DNA of 64,000 nt from Octopus vulgaris (taxonomy: Eukaryota), in the NCBI GenBank assembly GCA_951406725.2, contig OX597831.1:4650001-4714000 (forward strand). The letters are read 5' to 3'. The stretch's first letter is position 1. Each line of letters starts with the position of its first letter. Shown in pieces: positions 6,079 through 54,049 of the stretch. The notes beneath the pieces were generated by a model, which saw only the letters and a program-made list of their open reading frames with translations, was not told the DNA's origin and made no database searches. The translations under genes and the position numbers were made by a program.

Positions 6079-7358
6079 TAGTTTTATTTTTATAGCGTGC
6101 TTTCACTTCACTACCGAGCGCAGCTCTGTGTGCCTTGGGTATGTGCTGTGATTTGTTGTGATGCTCTGATGGTTATTGTATGGAAAGTGCTCTGCGTAGG
6201 ATGTGTGCAGTGCCTAGTAGTGCAATTTTCTGTATGATATATGTGTTTGTAAGTCCTGGTGTTTTTGTTATGTATTTGTCTGAATATTTTTTTATCATGC
6301 CTAATGCACCTACTATGATAGGAATTGTTTCTGTTTTCAGATTCCACATTCTAGTTACCTCTATTTCCAGGTCTTTGTATTTTGAGAGTTTCTCCATTTC
6401 TTTTAGAGACACGTTGTCATCTGCCGGTATTGATACATCAATTAGAAAGCATTTTTTTCTTCATGATCTCTGACAACTATATCTGGTCTGTTGGCCTTAA
6501 TTTCTCTATCTGTGTGTATCAGCATATCCCAGAGTATGGTTGCTTTCTCGTTTTCTGTAACCTTTTCTGGTGTGTGCCTATACCATCTTTTTTCTGTTGT
6601 TATTCCATAATGTTGGCATAGCTTCCAGTGTATGTAGGTTCCAACTCTGTCATGTCTGTGAATATATTCCTTCTTAGCCAGGACTGGGCAGCTAGAGATA
6701 ATATGATTTATTGTTTCTTGTCCATCTCCACATATTCTGCAGTTACTTGTAATATTTCTTTTCATTACATGTTTTTGGTAATTTCTGGTGGGGAGGCTTT
6801 GGTCTTGTGCTGCAATTAAAAATCCCTCTGTTTCTGCTTTGAGTCCTGAGCTTCTCAACCATTGCTGGGATCTTTCTTTGTCTATTTCTTTTGCGTTTAG
6901 TTTAGTGCAGTATTTACCATGAAGGGGCTTTTCTTGCCATCGTTTTATCATGGTTCGTTGCTGTTCTATTTTTAGTTTGGATTTCATTTGTTTTATAGCT
7001 TTTGTTGTTTTTTCATCATCTTCTTCTTCTTCTTCGTGTTTATTAGGTGGTATGATTTCTTGTTTGTATTTGTCAGCTTCCTTAAATACTGAGAACAGTT
7101 TTTTGTTTTGCTCGTGTTTTGCTGCTATCTGGATCAGTTTTCCTTCCTTCTGAAGTAGGTATTTTTGCAGTCCTATGGTGGTTATTTTATAGTAGTTTTC
7201 CAGCTGTATAAGGCCTCTACCACCTTCTATACGTTGTATATATAGTCTTTCTATGTCAGATTTTGGGTGATGCATCCTAGATCCTGTCAGTATTTTTCTT
7301 GTTTTCCTATCTATTTTGGACAGTTCATTTCGTGTCCAGTTAAGGATATTGTAGCTGT
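6076..7358 (-). mobile_element. Young 5'-truncated R4/Dong-clade non-LTR retrotransposon (RT C-terminal region, CCHC, RLE nuclease, 3' UTR)
   Basis: ORF 6442-7473: MHHPKSDIERLYI..GGRGL, WQEKPLHG, GLKAETEGFLIAAQDQ, CRICGDGQETINHIISSC, RHD, RPDIV; continues after a 1-nt frameshift in an A-run (~6452) into KYKDLEIE..IPIIVGALG..LLGTAHILRRAL (6173-6412); (TAA)n on both flanks. Confidence 0.95.
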
Positions 7359-7359
7359 A

Positions 7360-7419
<60 letters not shown>

Positions 7420-7421
<2 letters not shown>

Positions 7422-8690
7422 TTTTTCTTCTTTCAATTTTGTTTCCATTTCTTGTCGAGTGTCTTCTCGACACCTAGTGCAAAGAACCTCACTGCATACA
7501 TTGGGAGGCCATCATAATAAAAACACAAGAGCGTTCGTTTACAAAATCAAATGAACTTACGTAAAAAAGATAATTACATGGAAGGTTTTCGTTCTCTCAG
7601 TCGCAATGCTCTTCTCAATACGTGTGACTTACATGTTAAAACAATCTTTTGTGGGGATCGGTCTCAAATAATATTCAGTTCCTTTTCCGATCTTCCAAGT
7701 GCTCTAAGAATCATTCGTATATTAACTGCCTTGAGATGCCACGTGTTTTCCTTTTCAGTCAGCAAATATTTATATTTTCTGGGTTCTCAAATTCTTTTGC
7801 TGAGACATTATGATCACAAGGAAAGCTCATGTTGATAAATAGAGTTTATTAATTTAGTCTTATACAACAATATTTGTTTTATAAGCTTTGGTGGTTCTGT
7901 TCGTATGTACTGGAAAGACCGAAAGGATCACTACACTTTCTCCCTCAGTTACGGTCTCAGGTTAGTGATTATACAACATGTCAATAGATTTAGTTATATA
8001 ATGTCGAAATATTAACCAGTGTAGATATTGGTCAACTTTGTCATGTCTTGACTTATACTCTAATAGTGCTAAAAATTTACATACAGTGATTAAGGGGTCC
8101 CCTGTTTCAATCTTATCGTTGTAGAATCAGCACTTTGGATCTATTCCCTTTTTCATCACATTGGCTTGGTAGTTTCGGGTCAATAAAATTTGATCGTGAG
8201 CAGCTGAGATAAAACCTTCGCTCTCTGCTTTTAGTCCTGAGTTCCGTAGCCACTGATGGGTGTATCTCTGGTCGACATCAGTTTGTTTGCTACTGGTCAC
8301 ATATTGGCCATGCAGATATTTCTGCTCCCATCTACCTGCCAATTGTCCTTGTGCTTTTTTTCTAAGCCGTTAATTTTACCTTCATTGCAATAACAGTTGT
8401 CATACTTCTCTAAGACTGTTCAGCCTGGGTGTCATGCAGGAAACCAACCGCAAATTTTTTACTCTACTTCTTACGCCTCGTGATTTTCAACAAGTTTTAG
8501 AATCCATTCGTTAGTTATTTTAAGTTATTTGACCTGTCCAATGGTGGCGATTTTCTAAAAAAGTACAAACTGGATCAGGCCACAACCTCTCTAGGCTCTG
8601 CAGAGATAAAATCATTGCATGTGTGCTTTTGGGTGGTTTCAAGTCAGTAGCATACGAATTTTTCTACTAATTTTCTTCATTCCAATACTA
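7420..8690 (-). mobile_element. Degenerate R4/Dong-like retrotransposon
   Basis: ORF 8127-8342 WEQKYLHGQY...QWLRNSGLKAESEGFISAAHDQILLTRNYQ...KC; 3' end abuts (TTA)n. Confidence 0.85.
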
Positions 8691-9491: not shown

Positions 9492-9733
9492 AGTGAATTG
9501 AAGAAATGGAGTTGAACGAAGATTTGAACAAAATATTTTAATGCATCGCTACGCGCATTTCCACAAATCACATGTTTCGATTGAATAATGAGACCATATT
9601 GTGTCTTTCTCTTCAGGAAGAAATAGGAAATCCGTTGGAAAAAACAAAAACAGAACAGAGGCGGAGCAAAACAAATCGAACTAGGCTCCTAAGAGCCCAT
9701 GGCCAAACCCGCTTCGTCAAGAAACTGCTATTT

Positions 9734-9772
<39 letters not shown>

Positions 9773-9859
9773 TTATTATATAGAAGGAGCTTCTAATTTT
9801 ACTCTGCTATGTATTGAGTACCTTACTTACTGTGGTTAACCCCGAATCAACCCGGGACC

Positions 9860-9899
<40 letters not shown>

Positions 9900-10085
9900 A
9901 ATAATGACAGTAATCCTTGGTTGGAATTTGTAAAATATCTTAATGCATACGATTTCCACAAATCACATGTTTCTTATAATCACAGTCCATACTCCTGTGA
10001 TTTTAAGAGACATGTAATTTGTGGAAACGCGCTAGCGATGATTAAAATATTTATAATTTCCACCAATGATTATTGTTATTGTCAC
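9900..10085. repeat. Imperfect fold-back of a short repeat family (related copy 9525-9590)
   Basis: atttccacaaatcacatgtttctt ... aagagacatgtaatttgtggaaa, with outer arms also complementary; adjacent to (TA)n. Confidence 0.6.
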
Positions 10086-10289: not shown

Positions 10290-10720
10290 TGGTCTTTTCG
10301 GCTTGACCGCTGCCATGTTAACACTGTTGTCTTCGTTTGCCGCAAAGGCATTTTTTCAAATACGCCAGCCAAGATAAGTTAAAAAATGTCTGAAGTCATA
10401 AGACATCCGCTGTTTTGTCCTGTTATTACTATTCTTGTTTTTTATTTCTATTTTTTGTTTCTTGTATTTATATTCGTGTGGCATCCTGTCCTTGTTTCGT
10501 ATACATTCGATCCTCTTTCCAAGAAATCTAATGCCCGTAGCTTAGTTTTTCTTTGGGGCTGGCCGTATCGGAGCGATATCAGGATTAATCAGCCGAAATT
10601 GCTAAGATGATCCGGTTCCCGACTGAAGATTGTAACGGTATGACCCGTCTGTTTTTTTGTGTCGTCTCTTTGTGTGTTTTTGTGTTCTTGTCCCATTTTG
10701 TAATTTATATTTAATTTCTA
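10290..10720 (+). repeat. Interspersed repeat (second copy 50340-50780) ending at (TA)n; possible Penelope-like terminus
   Basis: Shared aag(a/g)aatctaat...tagcttagtttttc...aatcagccgaaattgc...atgacccgtc...ttcttgtcccatttt blocks. Confidence 0.6.
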
Positions 10721-10747
10721 TACATATATATATATATATATATATAT

Positions 10748-11357
10748 AACAATAATAAATCTCTGAGCGAGATATAAACAGTAACTGCTCTATAACATAA
10801 GGGGGATCAGCCATCTGAATGTGGCTAGGGACAGGGCGGGGTGGTGGGTGTGTTACTGATGCATTTAGCCCCAGGCGATCATCAACGTCACCAGAAGGGC
10901 TGACACCATCTCGGTGTCCTTGCCAGCCTGCAAAGGGAGATCAGCCTCCCCGAAGATACGGATACTACATACGGACTGATCTCCCTTTGCAGGCTGGCAA
11001 GGACACCGAGATGGTGTCAGCCCTTCTGATGACGTTGATGATCGCCTGGGGCTAAATGCATCAGTAACACACCCACCACCCCGCCCTGTCCCTAGCCACA
11101 TTCAGATGGCTGATCCCCTTATGTTATAGAGCAGTTACTGTTTATATCTCGCTCAGAGATTTATTATTGTTGTCGAACGGTTTTTCTACATCAGTGACTG
11201 TGGTTACTGTGAAAATCCATATATATCCAGCCTGTAGAGGAAGTCCCTCAACGAAGAGCGGTGCTTACCATACGTTGATAAGAGGCAAATACCTCGAAAC
11301 CGGTCCGTATGTAGTATCTGTATCTTCGGGGAGGCTGATCTCCCTTTGCAGGCTGGA
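10748..11357 (+). mobile_element. Hammerhead-bearing non-autonomous element (Penelope-like/retrozyme-like): ~197-bp inverted repeat plus ~359-bp partial tandem unit
   Basis: Arms 10748-10944 and 10976-11171 differ by one substitution and one indel; ctgatctccctttgcaggctgg recurs at 10976 and 11335; hammerhead at 11269-11311. Confidence 0.8.
11269..11311 (+). ncRNA. Minimal type-I hammerhead ribozyme, U3-A8 core variant
   Basis: catacg-TTGATAA-gagg caaata cctc-GAAA-ccgg-TC-cgtatg: 6-bp stem I, 4-bp stem II, palindromic stem III, GUC triplet. Confidence 0.8.
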
Positions 11358-11533
11358 TCGCTAGCCACTAGGCATTCTTTATTTTCTCTCCTTGTCTCTT
11401 TCTATGTTCTTTTCTGTGGAAGAGTGTAGGCTCGAAACGTTAAAGATTTTCACTTCCTGAGCGTTAAGCTAATACATCTGTTTGTTGGCTACACCACCTG
11501 TCTTCGTCTTTTGTTTTTTTGTGAATTCTCCCC
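11358..11533 (+). mobile_element. Penelope-like terminal repeat with degenerate minimal hammerhead (11408-11446), ending at (TA)n
   Basis: tctttt-CTGTGGA-agagtgtaggctc-GAAACGTT-aaaga; homologous to 53855-54049. Confidence 0.65.
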
Positions 11534-24716: not shown

Positions 24717-25741
24717 TGTTTCTTTATTAGCCACACCGGGCTGCACACAGATAGAACAAATTACAAGGTAGAGCTTTTCTTTTGAAGGGTTAGGAAAAAA
24801 AAAAAAAAAAAAAGGAAGGGGGAGTTTCGATCAAAAGGGATCGTAAAAGGAGAGAAAGAGGACAAAAAAAAGGGGGGTTAAAAAAAGGGGGGAGGAAAAA
24901 AATTGATCAATAGGGATCGTTATCACAGAAATGTCAATATGAAGTGTAAAGGGGAGGACAGGTGAGGTTTACCCGTGGAAAGAAAAGCCTACGGAAAAGA
25001 CCACGGTAACCTCGGTCAATGAAGTCACATTTTATATTTCTTTTTTTTTTTTTTTTTTTTTGCAAATAAGCAACTCTCTGTTTTCGATTTCTGGGTTCAT
25101 AGGACTATGCTCAAGGTGGCTTCGTCATTCATACGTGCCATTCTTGCTACATTCACCCATCTTTTTTTAAAACATTCGCTAGACAAAACTTGCCTCTCTA
25201 CTCTCACTTTCCTTTTCAAGTGGTACTTGAAGAAGTTGATGAGAGATTGACCAGAGAGGAAAGTGTTTGTCTCCAATCCTTTCAGACGCGTCCACCAGAT
25301 ACATTCTTTCGCCATAGCCACAAGGATGATGAAAATAGCTCTTCCTTCCCGTTTGAAGGAAGGAGGCGTGACAATATTGACGATAGACTCAGCTGATAAA
25401 CCGACTCGTCCCACACGTGACAGCAGTTGTTCGACACAAGCCCACAGGTCGGAAATTGTTGGACACTGAACGAGTGCGTGCAGAACGGTTTCGTCGCTCT
25501 GACCGCATCTCGGGCAGGTCGGCCCCGTGTTTCTCGAGCCGTGTCTGTAGAGCTTATCCCGAACGGGTAGCGCTTCTCGGTAGCACTGCCAGGCCAGGGA
25601 TCTCTGGAAGTTGTCCATGGGCCCTGGCCCGAAAGTCGTCCTGAACAGGCGGGTCAGGTACTCCTCGTCGACGTCCAGGTTCGCCCCGAGCTCGTCGTCG
25701 TACCTCCCCTCCACTAAACCCCTATAGAATGCTTTGGTTGT

Positions 25742-25742
<1 letters not shown>
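24716..25742 (-). mobile_element. Young 5'-truncated Tx1/L1-clade non-LTR retrotransposon (ORF2 C-terminal zinc-binding region plus 3' UTR) inside (GATA)n
   Basis: Uninterrupted ~215 codons (25097-25742): LAWQCYREALPVRDKLYRHG..CPRCGQSDETVLHALVQC..W..IWWTR, the typical L1/Tx1 zf-RVT pattern; AATAAA near the 3' end (24723-24728); GATA repeats on both sides. Confidence 0.88.
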
Positions 25743-25776
<34 letters not shown>

Positions 25777-25807
25777 GTGTGTGTGTGTATATATACATAC
25801 ATATATA

Positions 25808-25878
25808 AATGTGACCGCATGTGTACCGTTGGCGATTTTTCTCCTCTGTCTTCCATTCTCTAGATCTTTCCTTCTCTG
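25808..25878 (+). repeat. Fragment of the hammerhead repeat family seen at 51910-52140
   Basis: tgtgaccgcatgtgtaccgttggcgatttttctcctctgtcttcc is the near reverse complement of 52080-52125; cut by a SINE A before the ribozyme. Confidence 0.65.
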
Positions 25879-25900
25879 AAAGAAGCCTGTCGTATATATG

Positions 25901-25953
<53 letters not shown>

Positions 25954-26177
25954 TGTGTGTGTGTGTGCTTGTGTGCTTGTGTGTCCCCCCTAGCATTGCT
26001 TGACAACCGATGCTAGTGTGTTTACGTCCCCAATACCTAGCGGTTCGGCAAAAGGAGACCAATTGAATAAGCACTGGGCTTACAAAGAATAAGTCCCGGG
26101 GTCGATTTGCTCGACTAAAGGCGGTGCTCCAGCATGGCCGCAGTCAAATGACTGAAACAAGTAAAAGAGTAAAAGAG
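25876..26177 (+). mobile_element. SINE family A, 5'-truncated
   Basis: ctgaaagaagcctgtcg...gaaacaagtaaaagagtaaaagag. Confidence 0.9.
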
Positions 26178-27077: not shown

Positions 27078-27722
27078 TCTAATGTAGAATAAAATTTTTC
27101 GAAAAAAAACTCTATCAATGGCCAGCATATTAAAAAATACCTTTAAAGGTGCTTGTAGTGATAAATTACATGGTTATTGACGTTGTGTCTATTTTCGGCA
27201 TATTTTGGTATTAGAAATTTTTTTCTTTTGCCCTTATAAATTGTTTATAATTTTAACCTTTAAAGGTATTTTTTAATATGCTGGCCATTGATAGAATTTT
27301 TATTCGAAAAATTTCATCCTACGTTAGATGTTAATTTAATAGTGTTCACTTCCGGACTCTCTCATTTCATGAGAGATTTTTAGTACGAATCGCACGTGTC
27401 TCGAGATGGGCTAGAGAGTTTCTATTTTGGATATATTTGGGGTACTTAATTGTGCTCATGACTTAGTGTTCACTTCTTCCATGGGTATAAGTAAGTATTT
27501 CACGTATTTCTTTGCCGCATTTATTACTGATGAAGGGAAGATTCTTAAGAATTAACTCTGAAATCGGGTCCGATATGGTAATAACGCGATTTTTTAGAAA
27601 TTTCTGTCGGCTTTCTTCGAAACGCGTGCTTGTAGTGATAAATTACATGGTTATTGACGTTGAGTCTGTTTTCGGCATATTTTGGCATTAGAAATTTTTT
27701 CTTTTGCCCTTACTTATAAATT
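27078..27722 (+). mobile_element. Fold-back plus ~477-bp partial tandem element with hammerhead-like motif, flanked by (TA)n
   Basis: 27078-27150 is the inverse of ~27256-27328; gtgcttgtagtgataaattac at 27149 and 27626; CTGATGA at 27527 with GAAA candidates at ~27560 and ~27619. Confidence 0.7.
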
Positions 27723-35917: not shown

Positions 35918-36098
35918 CGCGTGTTGTTGGTGACATTTTTCCTTCTCTGGACTTTTTCTGTTTTCTTTTCTGACGAAGAGCTATGCTCGACACGTCGAAA
36001 TCTCTCTCTTTTTACCGAGCGTCAAACTAATATATTCTATGTACACAACCTCTTGTTTGTTATTGTTATTTTTAATGTTGTCTTTGTATGTGATTATA
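35918..36098 (+). mobile_element. Penelope-like terminal repeat with degenerate hammerhead (35966-36000)
   Basis: tttt-CTGACGA-a-gagc tat gctc-GACA-cg-TC-gaaa; downstream ccgagcgtcaaactaata resembles the 11.4 and 53.9 kb copies; ends at (TA)n. Confidence 0.6.
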
Positions 36099-50340: not shown

Positions 50341-50793
50341 TTGGTCTGGCCGTTGTCCGTGCAACATCGATATTCCTCCCTGTGTTTGTGAAATCTTGTA
50401 TCCCTACCGTAAGGCTTCATTTCCACACAAGCCAGCTTTATTTAATTCGTCCTTAGTCTAAAGACACCTGTTATTATTTTTATTGTATTTCTGTAACATT
50501 GTCCGTTTTTTTCCGTCCTTCTTTTTGCATACATTTGCTGCTTTCTTCCAAGGAATCTAATACTCTTAGCTTAGTTTTTCCTTGGAGCTGACCAGATTGG
50601 AGCAATCTCAATTATAATCAGCCGAAATTGCGAAGATATCTGGTACTTGATCGAGGAAAGAAAACTTCGAATGACCCGTCCTTGTTTTCTTTGTATCGTC
50701 TATCTGCATGTTTTGTTGTCCCATTTTTGTATCACCTAACTGTCAGGATGTTTTGGATTCTTGTCCCATTTTTGCATATATATATATATATAC

Positions 50794-53854: not shown

Positions 53855-54049
53855 CGTTAGCTACTGCACGCATTTTTTTCTCTCCTTCTTTCTGTGTTTT
53901 TCTCTCTCTGTGTATCTTTCTGTTGAAGAGCGTAGGCTCGAAACGTTAAAGACTTGTTTTATTTATATTTCCTGAGCGCCATACTAATACAATTGTTCGT
54001 TTGTTTTCCACCTGCCTTCGTCTTTTGTTTATTTTCATAAAGCTTCCCG
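53855..54049 (+). mobile_element. Penelope-like terminal repeat with minimal hammerhead (53915-53953), ending at (TA)n
   Basis: tcttt-CTGTTGA-a-gagc gtag gctc-GAAACGTT-aaaga. Confidence 0.7.

What the first reader, a model, noticed from the sequence alone, without database searches (positions are those of the whole stretch)
10748..11357. Young ~359-bp hammerhead retroelement whose inverted copy begins at the ribozyme cleavage site
Seen: a near-perfect 197-bp fold-back, then a circularly permuted unit (ctgatctccc at 10976 and 11335, period 359) containing one well-formed minimal hammerhead (11269-11311). The fold-back 'spacer' (10945-10976) is the reverse complement of the sequence just after the ribozyme. 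Read on the minus strand, the inverted copy therefore starts at (g)tc/cgtatg, within 2-3 nt of the predicted GUC cut. Established: Penelope-like elements carry minimal type-I hammerheads and form inverted or partial-tandem ends, and retrozymes are short non-coding hammerhead units. Inference: a non-coding retrozyme-like element whose self-cleaved, possibly circular, RNA was reverse transcribed and inserted next to (TA)n, recording the cut site in the DNA.
Basis: partly seen in the sequence, partly recalled or inferred. Interest (0 to 1): 0.82.

Follow-up and report, generated by a model that had tools for sequence, protein, structure and literature searches.

The report
Hammerhead retrozyme, head-to-head Penelope-type insertion
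This is one young copy of an abundant 359-base non-coding repeat that carries a predicted self-cutting RNA and was likely pasted in as two back-to-back copies by a Penelope-type jumping-gene enzyme; the join sits beside the predicted cut site, but other copies appear to join elsewhere, so this does not show that the RNA was cut.

Summary
In detail: 197-nt arms, a 359-nt period and a hammerhead at 11269-11311. The ribozyme is a canonical-size type I motif with the published U3-A8 core and a weak palindromic helix III, not the minimal PLE form. Public contigs show a high-copy family, a head-to-tail 359-nt junction (2 of 4 runs) and a family 3' end near 11169-11171, where the inverted arm meets (TA)n. 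Both arms share a letter seen in under 1% of family depth, so they have one donor. The right arm (381 nt) runs through an intact cut site, so its template was not one cut monomer. The 'recorded cut site' is not supported: the inverted arm stops 2-3 nt past the cut, and 0 of 14 arm ends in 7 other head-to-head junctions lie within 16 nt of it (small, partly shown sample). Verdict: a non-LTR retrozyme with a known Penelope-type layout. This scan reported 358-364-nt families of this kind several times in the same genome; I could not confirm identity by sequence. Cleavage, circles and the helper enzyme are untested.

The parts
10724..10748 (.). (TA)n microsatellite, likely the insertion target on the left
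   Evidence: sequence; the arm begins at 10748 with 1 nt shared
10748..10976 (-). Inverted arm, 229 nt: from 2-3 nt before the predicted cut to the family 3' end
   Evidence: 226 of 229 columns identical to the unit
10973..10977 (.). Head-to-head junction; 1-nt microhomology (C at 10976); 10973 mirrors the first base after the predicted cut
   Evidence: observed versus expected continuations of both arms
10976..11356 (+). Direct arm, 381 nt = 1.06 units; runs through the intact hammerhead
   Evidence: 22-nt terminal repeat at spacing 359; joint 11334->10976 in runs X5 and X13
10998..11356 (+). One 359-nt retrozyme unit, non-coding
   Evidence: longest ATG ORF 14 aa on the ribozyme strand, 70 aa on the other; fold z -2.9, 0 of 100 shuffles as stable
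11131..11171 (+). Family 3' terminal 35-40 nt with a small hairpin (11146-11160), shared with at least one other repeat; likely the Penelope-type 'tail' / reverse-transcription start
   Evidence: loose ends behind 11169 in 43 and 53 contigs with agreement 0.51-0.54; 15-16-fold depth drop after 11170; a different conserved sequence before 11131/11136; hairpin; role inferred from PMC11167929
11227..11356 (+). Long rod that extends helix I and presents the ribozyme at its tip
   Evidence: z -4.47, 0 of 200 shuffles for 11230-11357; 4 of 4 variants at paired positions keep a pair, all one-sided
11269..11311 (+). Type I hammerhead with U3-A8 core; predicted cut between 11305 and 11306; predicted to work as a dimer through ACCGGU
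   Evidence: no variant at 4% or more in 11273-11311 among the 9 places listed
11356..11530 (+). Right flank: a different, far more abundant and older repeat with a decayed minimal-hammerhead-like motif (about 11414-11441); not part of the unit
   Evidence: own upstream loose ends before 11356 in 52-73 contigs per run and six near-fixed differences from its family; 71-75% copies at 53889 and 35937

Best explanation
This is a young genomic copy of an abundant 359-nt non-coding repeat with a type I hammerhead motif (a non-LTR retrozyme), likely inserted by a Penelope-like reverse transcriptase-endonuclease that would have primed two cDNAs from the two sides of one DNA break on an uncut multimeric or circular RNA and joined their ends head to head at a position that is likely near the predicted cut site by chance. 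Shown: the unit, its head-to-tail junction, high abundance, the common 3' end, the two arms from one donor, and the read-through of the cut site by the right arm. Inferred steps: (1) tandem copies are transcribed; the weak helix III makes the ribozyme cut mainly as a dimer, and monomers may be ligated to circles. (2) A Penelope-like protein binds the terminal 35-40 nt and nicks (TA)n. (3) The left cDNA starts at unit position +225 (11171) and copies back 227-228 nt. (4) The right cDNA covers +51 back round a full lap to +30; its outer end was either primed internally or trimmed later, since there is no target-site duplication. (5) The two cDNA ends are joined through 1 nt of microhomology.
For: Joint 'goes back 359' in 2 of 4 runs, plus DNA loose ends that continue past 11354 into the unit's start. 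1,445 and 1,399 contigs laid on 381 nt in two DNA runs, 295 and 247 of them at 99% or better. Holders carry three organism labels and come from 8 studies. The family end at 11169-11171 equals the left arm's outer end. Both arms carry the letter at 11071/10849 that under 1% of summed family depth has. Seven other antisense-to-sense junctions appear among 15 joints shown, with scattered ends. The inverted 5'-truncated copy, the 30-40-nt tail and microsatellite targeting are described for PLEs (PMC8557442; PMC3846280). Internal RT initiation at AT-rich nicks on both strands was shown in vitro, ribozyme mutants inserted normally, and no RNA-seq ends were found at the cut site (PMC11167929).
Against: No autonomous PLE sharing this tail was found; no genome was held. 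The seven junctions rest on single contigs with 20-30-letter sides at 88% likeness, only one was seen in two runs, and 17 of 32 joint rows were hidden. The re-lay on one unit at 90% listed no strand-change joint. A junction within 3 nt of the cut has only about a 4% chance at one locus. The right end (11356) is not shown to be a common family end. The arms differ at 3 of 229 columns, so two RNA templates or later mutation are both possible.
Confidence: 0.7

Rival explanations
1. The left arm was copied from a self-cleaved RNA. The enzyme reached the cut 5' end, gained 2-3 nt (by jumping the nick onto the adjacent GUC end, or without template) and stopped, so the junction records cleavage in the animal.
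For: The junction is 2-3 nt from the predicted cut; about 4% by chance at one locus. Core and rod are conserved. Summed depth rises just 3' of the cut, 3.5-fold in X3.
Against: The extra letters match the uncut template exactly (1 in 16 for two untemplated letters). 0 of 14 other arm ends are within 16 nt of the cut; with 16 ends in all, one hit within 3 nt is expected 27% of the time. The depth step is only 1.4-fold in X2, and the tool says depth is no copy number. The right arm and both bridging contigs (X5, X13) cross the site intact.
Confidence: 0.2
2. The enzyme stalls at the ribozyme's three-way junction or at the ACCGGU dimer helix whether or not the RNA is cut, so junctions gather there for a structural reason.
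For: The left arm ends exactly on entering helix III (G16.2/U16.1). ACCGGU self-pairs at -8.3 kcal/mol.
Against: None of the 7 other junctions is there; the right arm passed the same structure.
Confidence: 0.12
3. The hairpin arose by fold-back self-priming: the left cDNA turned on itself, copied 197 nt, and was then completed on a second cDNA or template.
For: It explains the shared rare letter. Self-priming was proposed for head-to-head PLE junctions with palindromes (PMC3846280).
Against: The turn has only 1 nt of perfect pairing and no palindrome. The right arm continues 185 nt beyond anything in the left arm, so a second template is needed anyway.
Confidence: 0.1
4. The fold-back is an assembly or sequencing artefact.
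For: No listed contig piece spans this exact junction.
Against: The arms differ at three positions, the spacer comes from elsewhere in the unit, the outer end matches the family's real 3' end, and like junctions occur in three independent runs.
Confidence: 0.04

Closest known systems
Metazoan non-LTR retrozymes (Cervera and de la Pena 2020, PMC7229834; mussel 350-390 bp, axolotl 330/350 bp; parts 2-4 of 6 read)
   Same: Non-coding head-to-tail unit of 359 nt with one type I hammerhead per unit and a self-paired fold. Helix III is one pair capped by a palindromic tetraloop, as in axolotl HHR_Amex1, which cleaves efficiently only as a dimer.
   Different: U3-A8 core. This locus is 1.06 units plus an inverted 0.64 unit, not a plain array. 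No large target-site duplication. Circles and cleavage are not shown here.
Endonuclease-bearing Penelope-like element insertions with an inverted 5'-truncated pLTR and tail (PMC8557442, PMC3846280: passages; PMC11167929: parts 1-2 of 4)
   Same: Head-to-head inverted copy, a common 3' end downstream of the hammerhead, a 35-40-nt terminal segment, and a (TA)n target.
   Different: No ORF: only about 100 nt lie between the 3' end and the next ribozyme. The hammerhead is canonical-size, not minimal. The helper element is unidentified.
U3-A8 hammerheads of Schistosoma mansoni Cercyon PLEs (Cervera and de la Pena 2014, PMC4209133; parts 1-2 of 4 read)
   Same: The same core covariation.
   Different: Those were found as minimal motifs, a class described with a 7-8-bp helix II and 4-5-bp helix I; here helix I is 6 bp and helix II 4 bp.
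Animal retrozymes as non-autonomous PLE derivatives (Li, Clavereau and Pollet 2026, bioRxiv 10.64898/2026.07.22.740005; parts 1-3 of 5 read, supplements not seen)
   Same: It proposes the same partnership; monomers are common.
   Different: Its evidence is co-occurrence and pLTR homology in 35 species, mostly vertebrates. It does not analyse insertion junctions in the parts read, and its species table was not seen.

Membership tests
Type I hammerhead ribozyme | Core boxes CUGANGA (or U3-A8 variant), GAAA and NUH with helices I-III | tested here: met
   U3-A8 variant described in PMC4209133
Type I hammerhead ribozyme | Self-cleavage at NUH | not testable with these tools
   needs an in vitro assay; only 1 of 9 predicted Xenopus dimers cleaved in the 2026 preprint
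Minimal PLE hammerhead (min-HHR) | Long helix II (7-8 bp), short helix I (4-5 bp), extra base between positions 9 and 10.1 | tested here: not met
   helix I 6 bp, helix II 4 bp, no extra base against the description
Non-LTR retrozyme | Short non-coding unit (about 150-450 nt) with a type I hammerhead | tested here: met
   359 nt; longest ATG ORF 14 aa sense
Non-LTR retrozyme | Head-to-tail repetition and many genomic copies | tested here: met
   359-nt back-joint in X5 and X13, DNA loose ends past 11354, about 1,400 contigs per DNA run
Non-LTR retrozyme | [quoted passage not shown] | tested here: not met
   one complete hammerhead at this locus; arrays elsewhere are reported only in unchecked scan notes
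Non-LTR retrozyme | Expression as linear and circular monomer RNA | not testable with these tools
   no holder on record as RNA; contigs cannot tell a circle from a tandem or from DNA
Penelope-type (EN+ PLE) insertion | Inverted 5'-truncated copy joined head to head | tested here: met
   7 more such joints
Penelope-type (EN+ PLE) insertion | Fixed 3' end downstream of the hammerhead, in AT-rich or microsatellite targets | tested here: met
   loose ends at 11167-11169 and the depth drop; (TA)n at the left end
Penelope-type (EN+ PLE) insertion | 30-40-nt tail at one end only (two RT start sites) | tested here: inconclusive
   a shared 35-40-nt terminal segment is seen, but a second start site is not, and the right end lies elsewhere
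Penelope-type (EN+ PLE) insertion | An autonomous RT-GIY-YIG element sharing the terminus | not testable with these tools
   no genome held; tail-motif scans gave only 21-29-nt matches

The most novel reading that the evidence does not exclude
The junction is a genomic footprint of in vivo hammerhead cleavage: a Penelope enzyme copied one retrozyme RNA from both sides of a break, one cDNA stalling 2-3 nt across the cut or re-ligated ribozyme site while the other ran a full lap through it. Such two-armed insertions would then record both cutting and circle-templated copying, and could be counted across the genome.
Probability: 0.2. Interest if true: 0.6.

Novelty: new member of a known kind. 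Interest (0 to 1): 0.3.

Why it matters
Whether hammerheads of PLEs and animal retrozymes cut the RNA that is actually copied into DNA is open: in the one in vitro PLE system cleavage was dispensable (PMC11167929). A young, abundant family with two-armed insertions makes this testable by counting arm ends against the cut site. This single locus does not settle it. The class, the core variant and the layout are all published, and this scan has already reported families of this description in the same genome.

Tried and rejected
Whole genome: none held, so no genome-wide breakpoint table. Rfam: 0 matches at gathering score over the window; the 10 matches at E<=10 are miRNA, snoRNA and sRNA models, mostly on the hairpin, all below gathering score, rejected. 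Window self-search: no third copy of the unit; the other family's upstream motif is absent. Pattern scans: hammerhead motif 0 hits in metagenome contigs; tail motif 8 metagenome, 0 viral and 2 prokaryote-genome loci, all 10 matching over only 21-29 nt, rejected as chance. Sequencing runs: no RNA holder listed; X5 and X13 are only guessed to be RNA, so nothing is claimed about expression. Summed contig depth was not used as a copy number. Scan look-ups by sequence, by nearby place and by relatives were empty. Considered and set aside: the right-flank repeat as part of the same insertion by template switching (it carries six near-fixed private differences in about 130 nt, against two in 381 nt of the direct arm; not excluded); a coding pLTR remnant (no ORF); the two flank letters that extend the rod past 11356 (they belong to the flank repeat, 1 in 16 by chance). 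No target-site duplication longer than 2 nt at the junctions. Literature searches listed no paper on cephalopod retrozymes or on inversion junctions at hammerhead cut sites; the library lacks most subscription journals, and supplements were not read.

Full report
Setting. The window is AT-rich, microsatellite- and repeat-dense animal DNA. I take it to be octopus from recalled repeat sequences and from unchecked scan notes on the same genome; no call names the organism. No genome is held, so family-level evidence comes from contigs of six public runs.

Observation. The arms 10748-10944 and 10976-11171 align over 197 columns with one substitution and one 1-nt indel. A 22-nt exact repeat at 10976 and 11335 gives the 359-nt period. 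The reverse complement of 10923-10976 matches 11303-11356 at 53 of 54 positions. The locus is therefore (TA)n, then a 229-nt antisense arm, then a 381-nt sense arm, then an unrelated repeat.

Ribozyme. At 11269-11311 there is a 6-bp helix I, the core UUGAUAA, a 4-bp helix II, GAAA, one A-U pair capped by CCGG, and GUC at 11303-11305. A strict descriptor hits once in the window and in 0 of 200 shuffles. Rfam does not call it. The 43-nt motif alone folds only modestly better than shuffles (z -1.7, 11 of 200). Helix I extends into a rod, 11227-11356, with z -4.47 for 11230-11357. PMC4209133 describes canonical metazoan type I motifs as 6-bp helix I, 4-bp helix II and a 1-2-bp helix III with a palindromic loop that works in dimers, and reports the U3-A8 core in Schistosoma PLEs. 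So the motif is canonical-size, not minimal. Closing helix III in the monomer costs 5.6 kcal/mol, while ACCGGU self-pairs at -8.3, as predicted for a dimer ribozyme like axolotl HHR_Amex1 (PMC7229834). Of six variants placed on the rod (five from the family tables, one from the left arm), four are at paired positions and all four keep a pair by a one-sided change; two are unpaired. This is weak support, with no two-sided compensation. None of the 9 variant places listed at 4% or more falls in 11273-11311. A diverged relative shares 11258-11301 across 146 unlike letters of the same length (X5).

Family. Twenty of 24 listed runs, from 8 studies and three organism labels, hold the stretch. On the 381-nt arm 1,445 (X3) and 1,399 (X2) contigs were laid. 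The head-to-tail joint 11334->10976 appears in X5 and X13, and DNA loose ends at 11354 continue into the start of the unit in X3 and X2. The 359-nt unit is thus real. Whether X5 and X13 are RNA is a guess, and contigs cannot tell a circle from a tandem. The unit is non-coding.

Ends. Loose ends with low agreement gather behind 11169 (43 and 53 contigs) and summed depth falls 15-16-fold after 11170. Part of that depth belongs to another repeat that shares only the last 35-40 nt (loose ends before 11131 and 11136). The left arm meets (TA)n at the matching point, 10748 = 11171. This fits a fixed reverse-transcription start downstream of the hammerhead, as shown in vitro for a lizard PLE that nicks AT-rich DNA on both strands (PMC11167929); the parallel is inference. 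The right end at 11356 abuts a much more abundant, older repeat that has its own upstream sequence. There is no target-site duplication over 2 nt, and 11356 is not shown to be a common end.

One donor, uncut template. Both arms carry the same letter at 11071/10849 where over 99% of summed family depth has another, so they share a donor. They differ at 3 of 229 columns. The sense arm is longer than one unit and contains the intact GUC, so it cannot come from a single linear cut monomer without a template jump. A multimer or a circle fits.

Does the junction record the cut? The antisense arm matches the template through the complement of UC, or of GUC counting the 1-nt microhomology, so it stops 2-3 nt past the cut. 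A clean 3' cleavage product lacks those letters. In one search, 7 of the 15 joint rows shown (32 in all) link an antisense arm to a sense arm; the other eight shown lie in or between the flank repeats. Their 14 arm ends lie 17-178 nt from the cut (one of these positions is uncertain by about 15 nt because of variant letters at the joint). One locus falls within 3 nt by chance about 4% of the time, and at least one of 16 ends does 27% of the time. These junctions are single contigs with 20-30-letter sides at 88% likeness; one was seen in two runs. One search listed no strand-change joints, so arms that ran past the cut may be invisible, and the seven were not reproduced there. The 95% upper bound on cut-terminated arms is 19-35%. 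No loose-end pile at the cut is among the 24 of 123 rows shown, and depth rises 3' of the cut 3.5-fold in X3 but 1.4-fold in X2. I put the cleavage footprint at about 20%, structural stalling at about 12%, and chance highest.

Known and new. Retrozymes of this size are known from mussel and axolotl, with PLEs proposed as helpers (PMC7229834; 2026 preprint). Inverted 5'-truncated copies, tails and microsatellite targets are standard for PLEs (PMC8557442, 12 of 22 passages; PMC3846280, 10 passages). Six searches listed no paper on a cephalopod retrozyme or on junctions at the cut; supplements were not read and may bear on that. Unchecked notes of this scan describe 358-364-nt hammerhead families in the same genome, several with U3-A8 cores, arrays and two-sided insertions, and like claims about cut-site junctions in other genomes, mostly judged unproven. 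I reuse the two-sided priming reading from them. Sequence look-ups could not confirm that they are the same family.

Verdict. A real, young retrozyme insertion with a known Penelope-type layout: a new member of a known kind, interest 0.3. The cut-site coincidence is a lead for a genome-wide count, not a result.

Noticed in passing
window 11356-11530, with relatives at 53889-54034 and 35937-36035: A very abundant repeat with a decayed minimal-hammerhead-like motif; the copy near 35969 keeps CTGACGA and GTC with one changed base in the GAAA box. Likely pLTR debris of another Penelope-like family.
   Followed up: partly
window 10489-10700, relative at 50515-50727: A second abundant repeat left of the (TA)n, 74% like its other copy. 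One X2 contig joins 10699 directly to 11356, which could be an empty or deleted allele or another locus.
   Followed up: no
window 27521-27579: A loose type I hammerhead-like arrangement with a canonical CTGATGA core; found by the relaxed scan but not the strict one, so possibly chance.
   Followed up: no
window 9530-10080: An imperfect palindrome of about 180 nt (9903-10080, 74%) with a 33-bp inner inverted repeat, and a 22-nt exact direct repeat 395 nt apart (9557/9952); MITE-like or an old fold-back.
   Followed up: no
window 11131-11171: At least one other repeat family shares only these last 35-40 nt of the unit, with its own conserved upstream sequence; a candidate for the helper element or a sister passenger.
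   Followed up: partly
window 11019-11111 and 11258-11301 (contigs of X5, X13): Diverged sister subfamilies: one keeps the hammerhead and the spacing with 146 unlike letters between; one X5 contig is itself 359 letters long.
   Followed up: no
window 6442-7473 (-) and 25097-26143 (-): Open frames that look like fragments of non-LTR retrotransposon proteins (recalled resemblance, from the translations; not searched).
   Followed up: no
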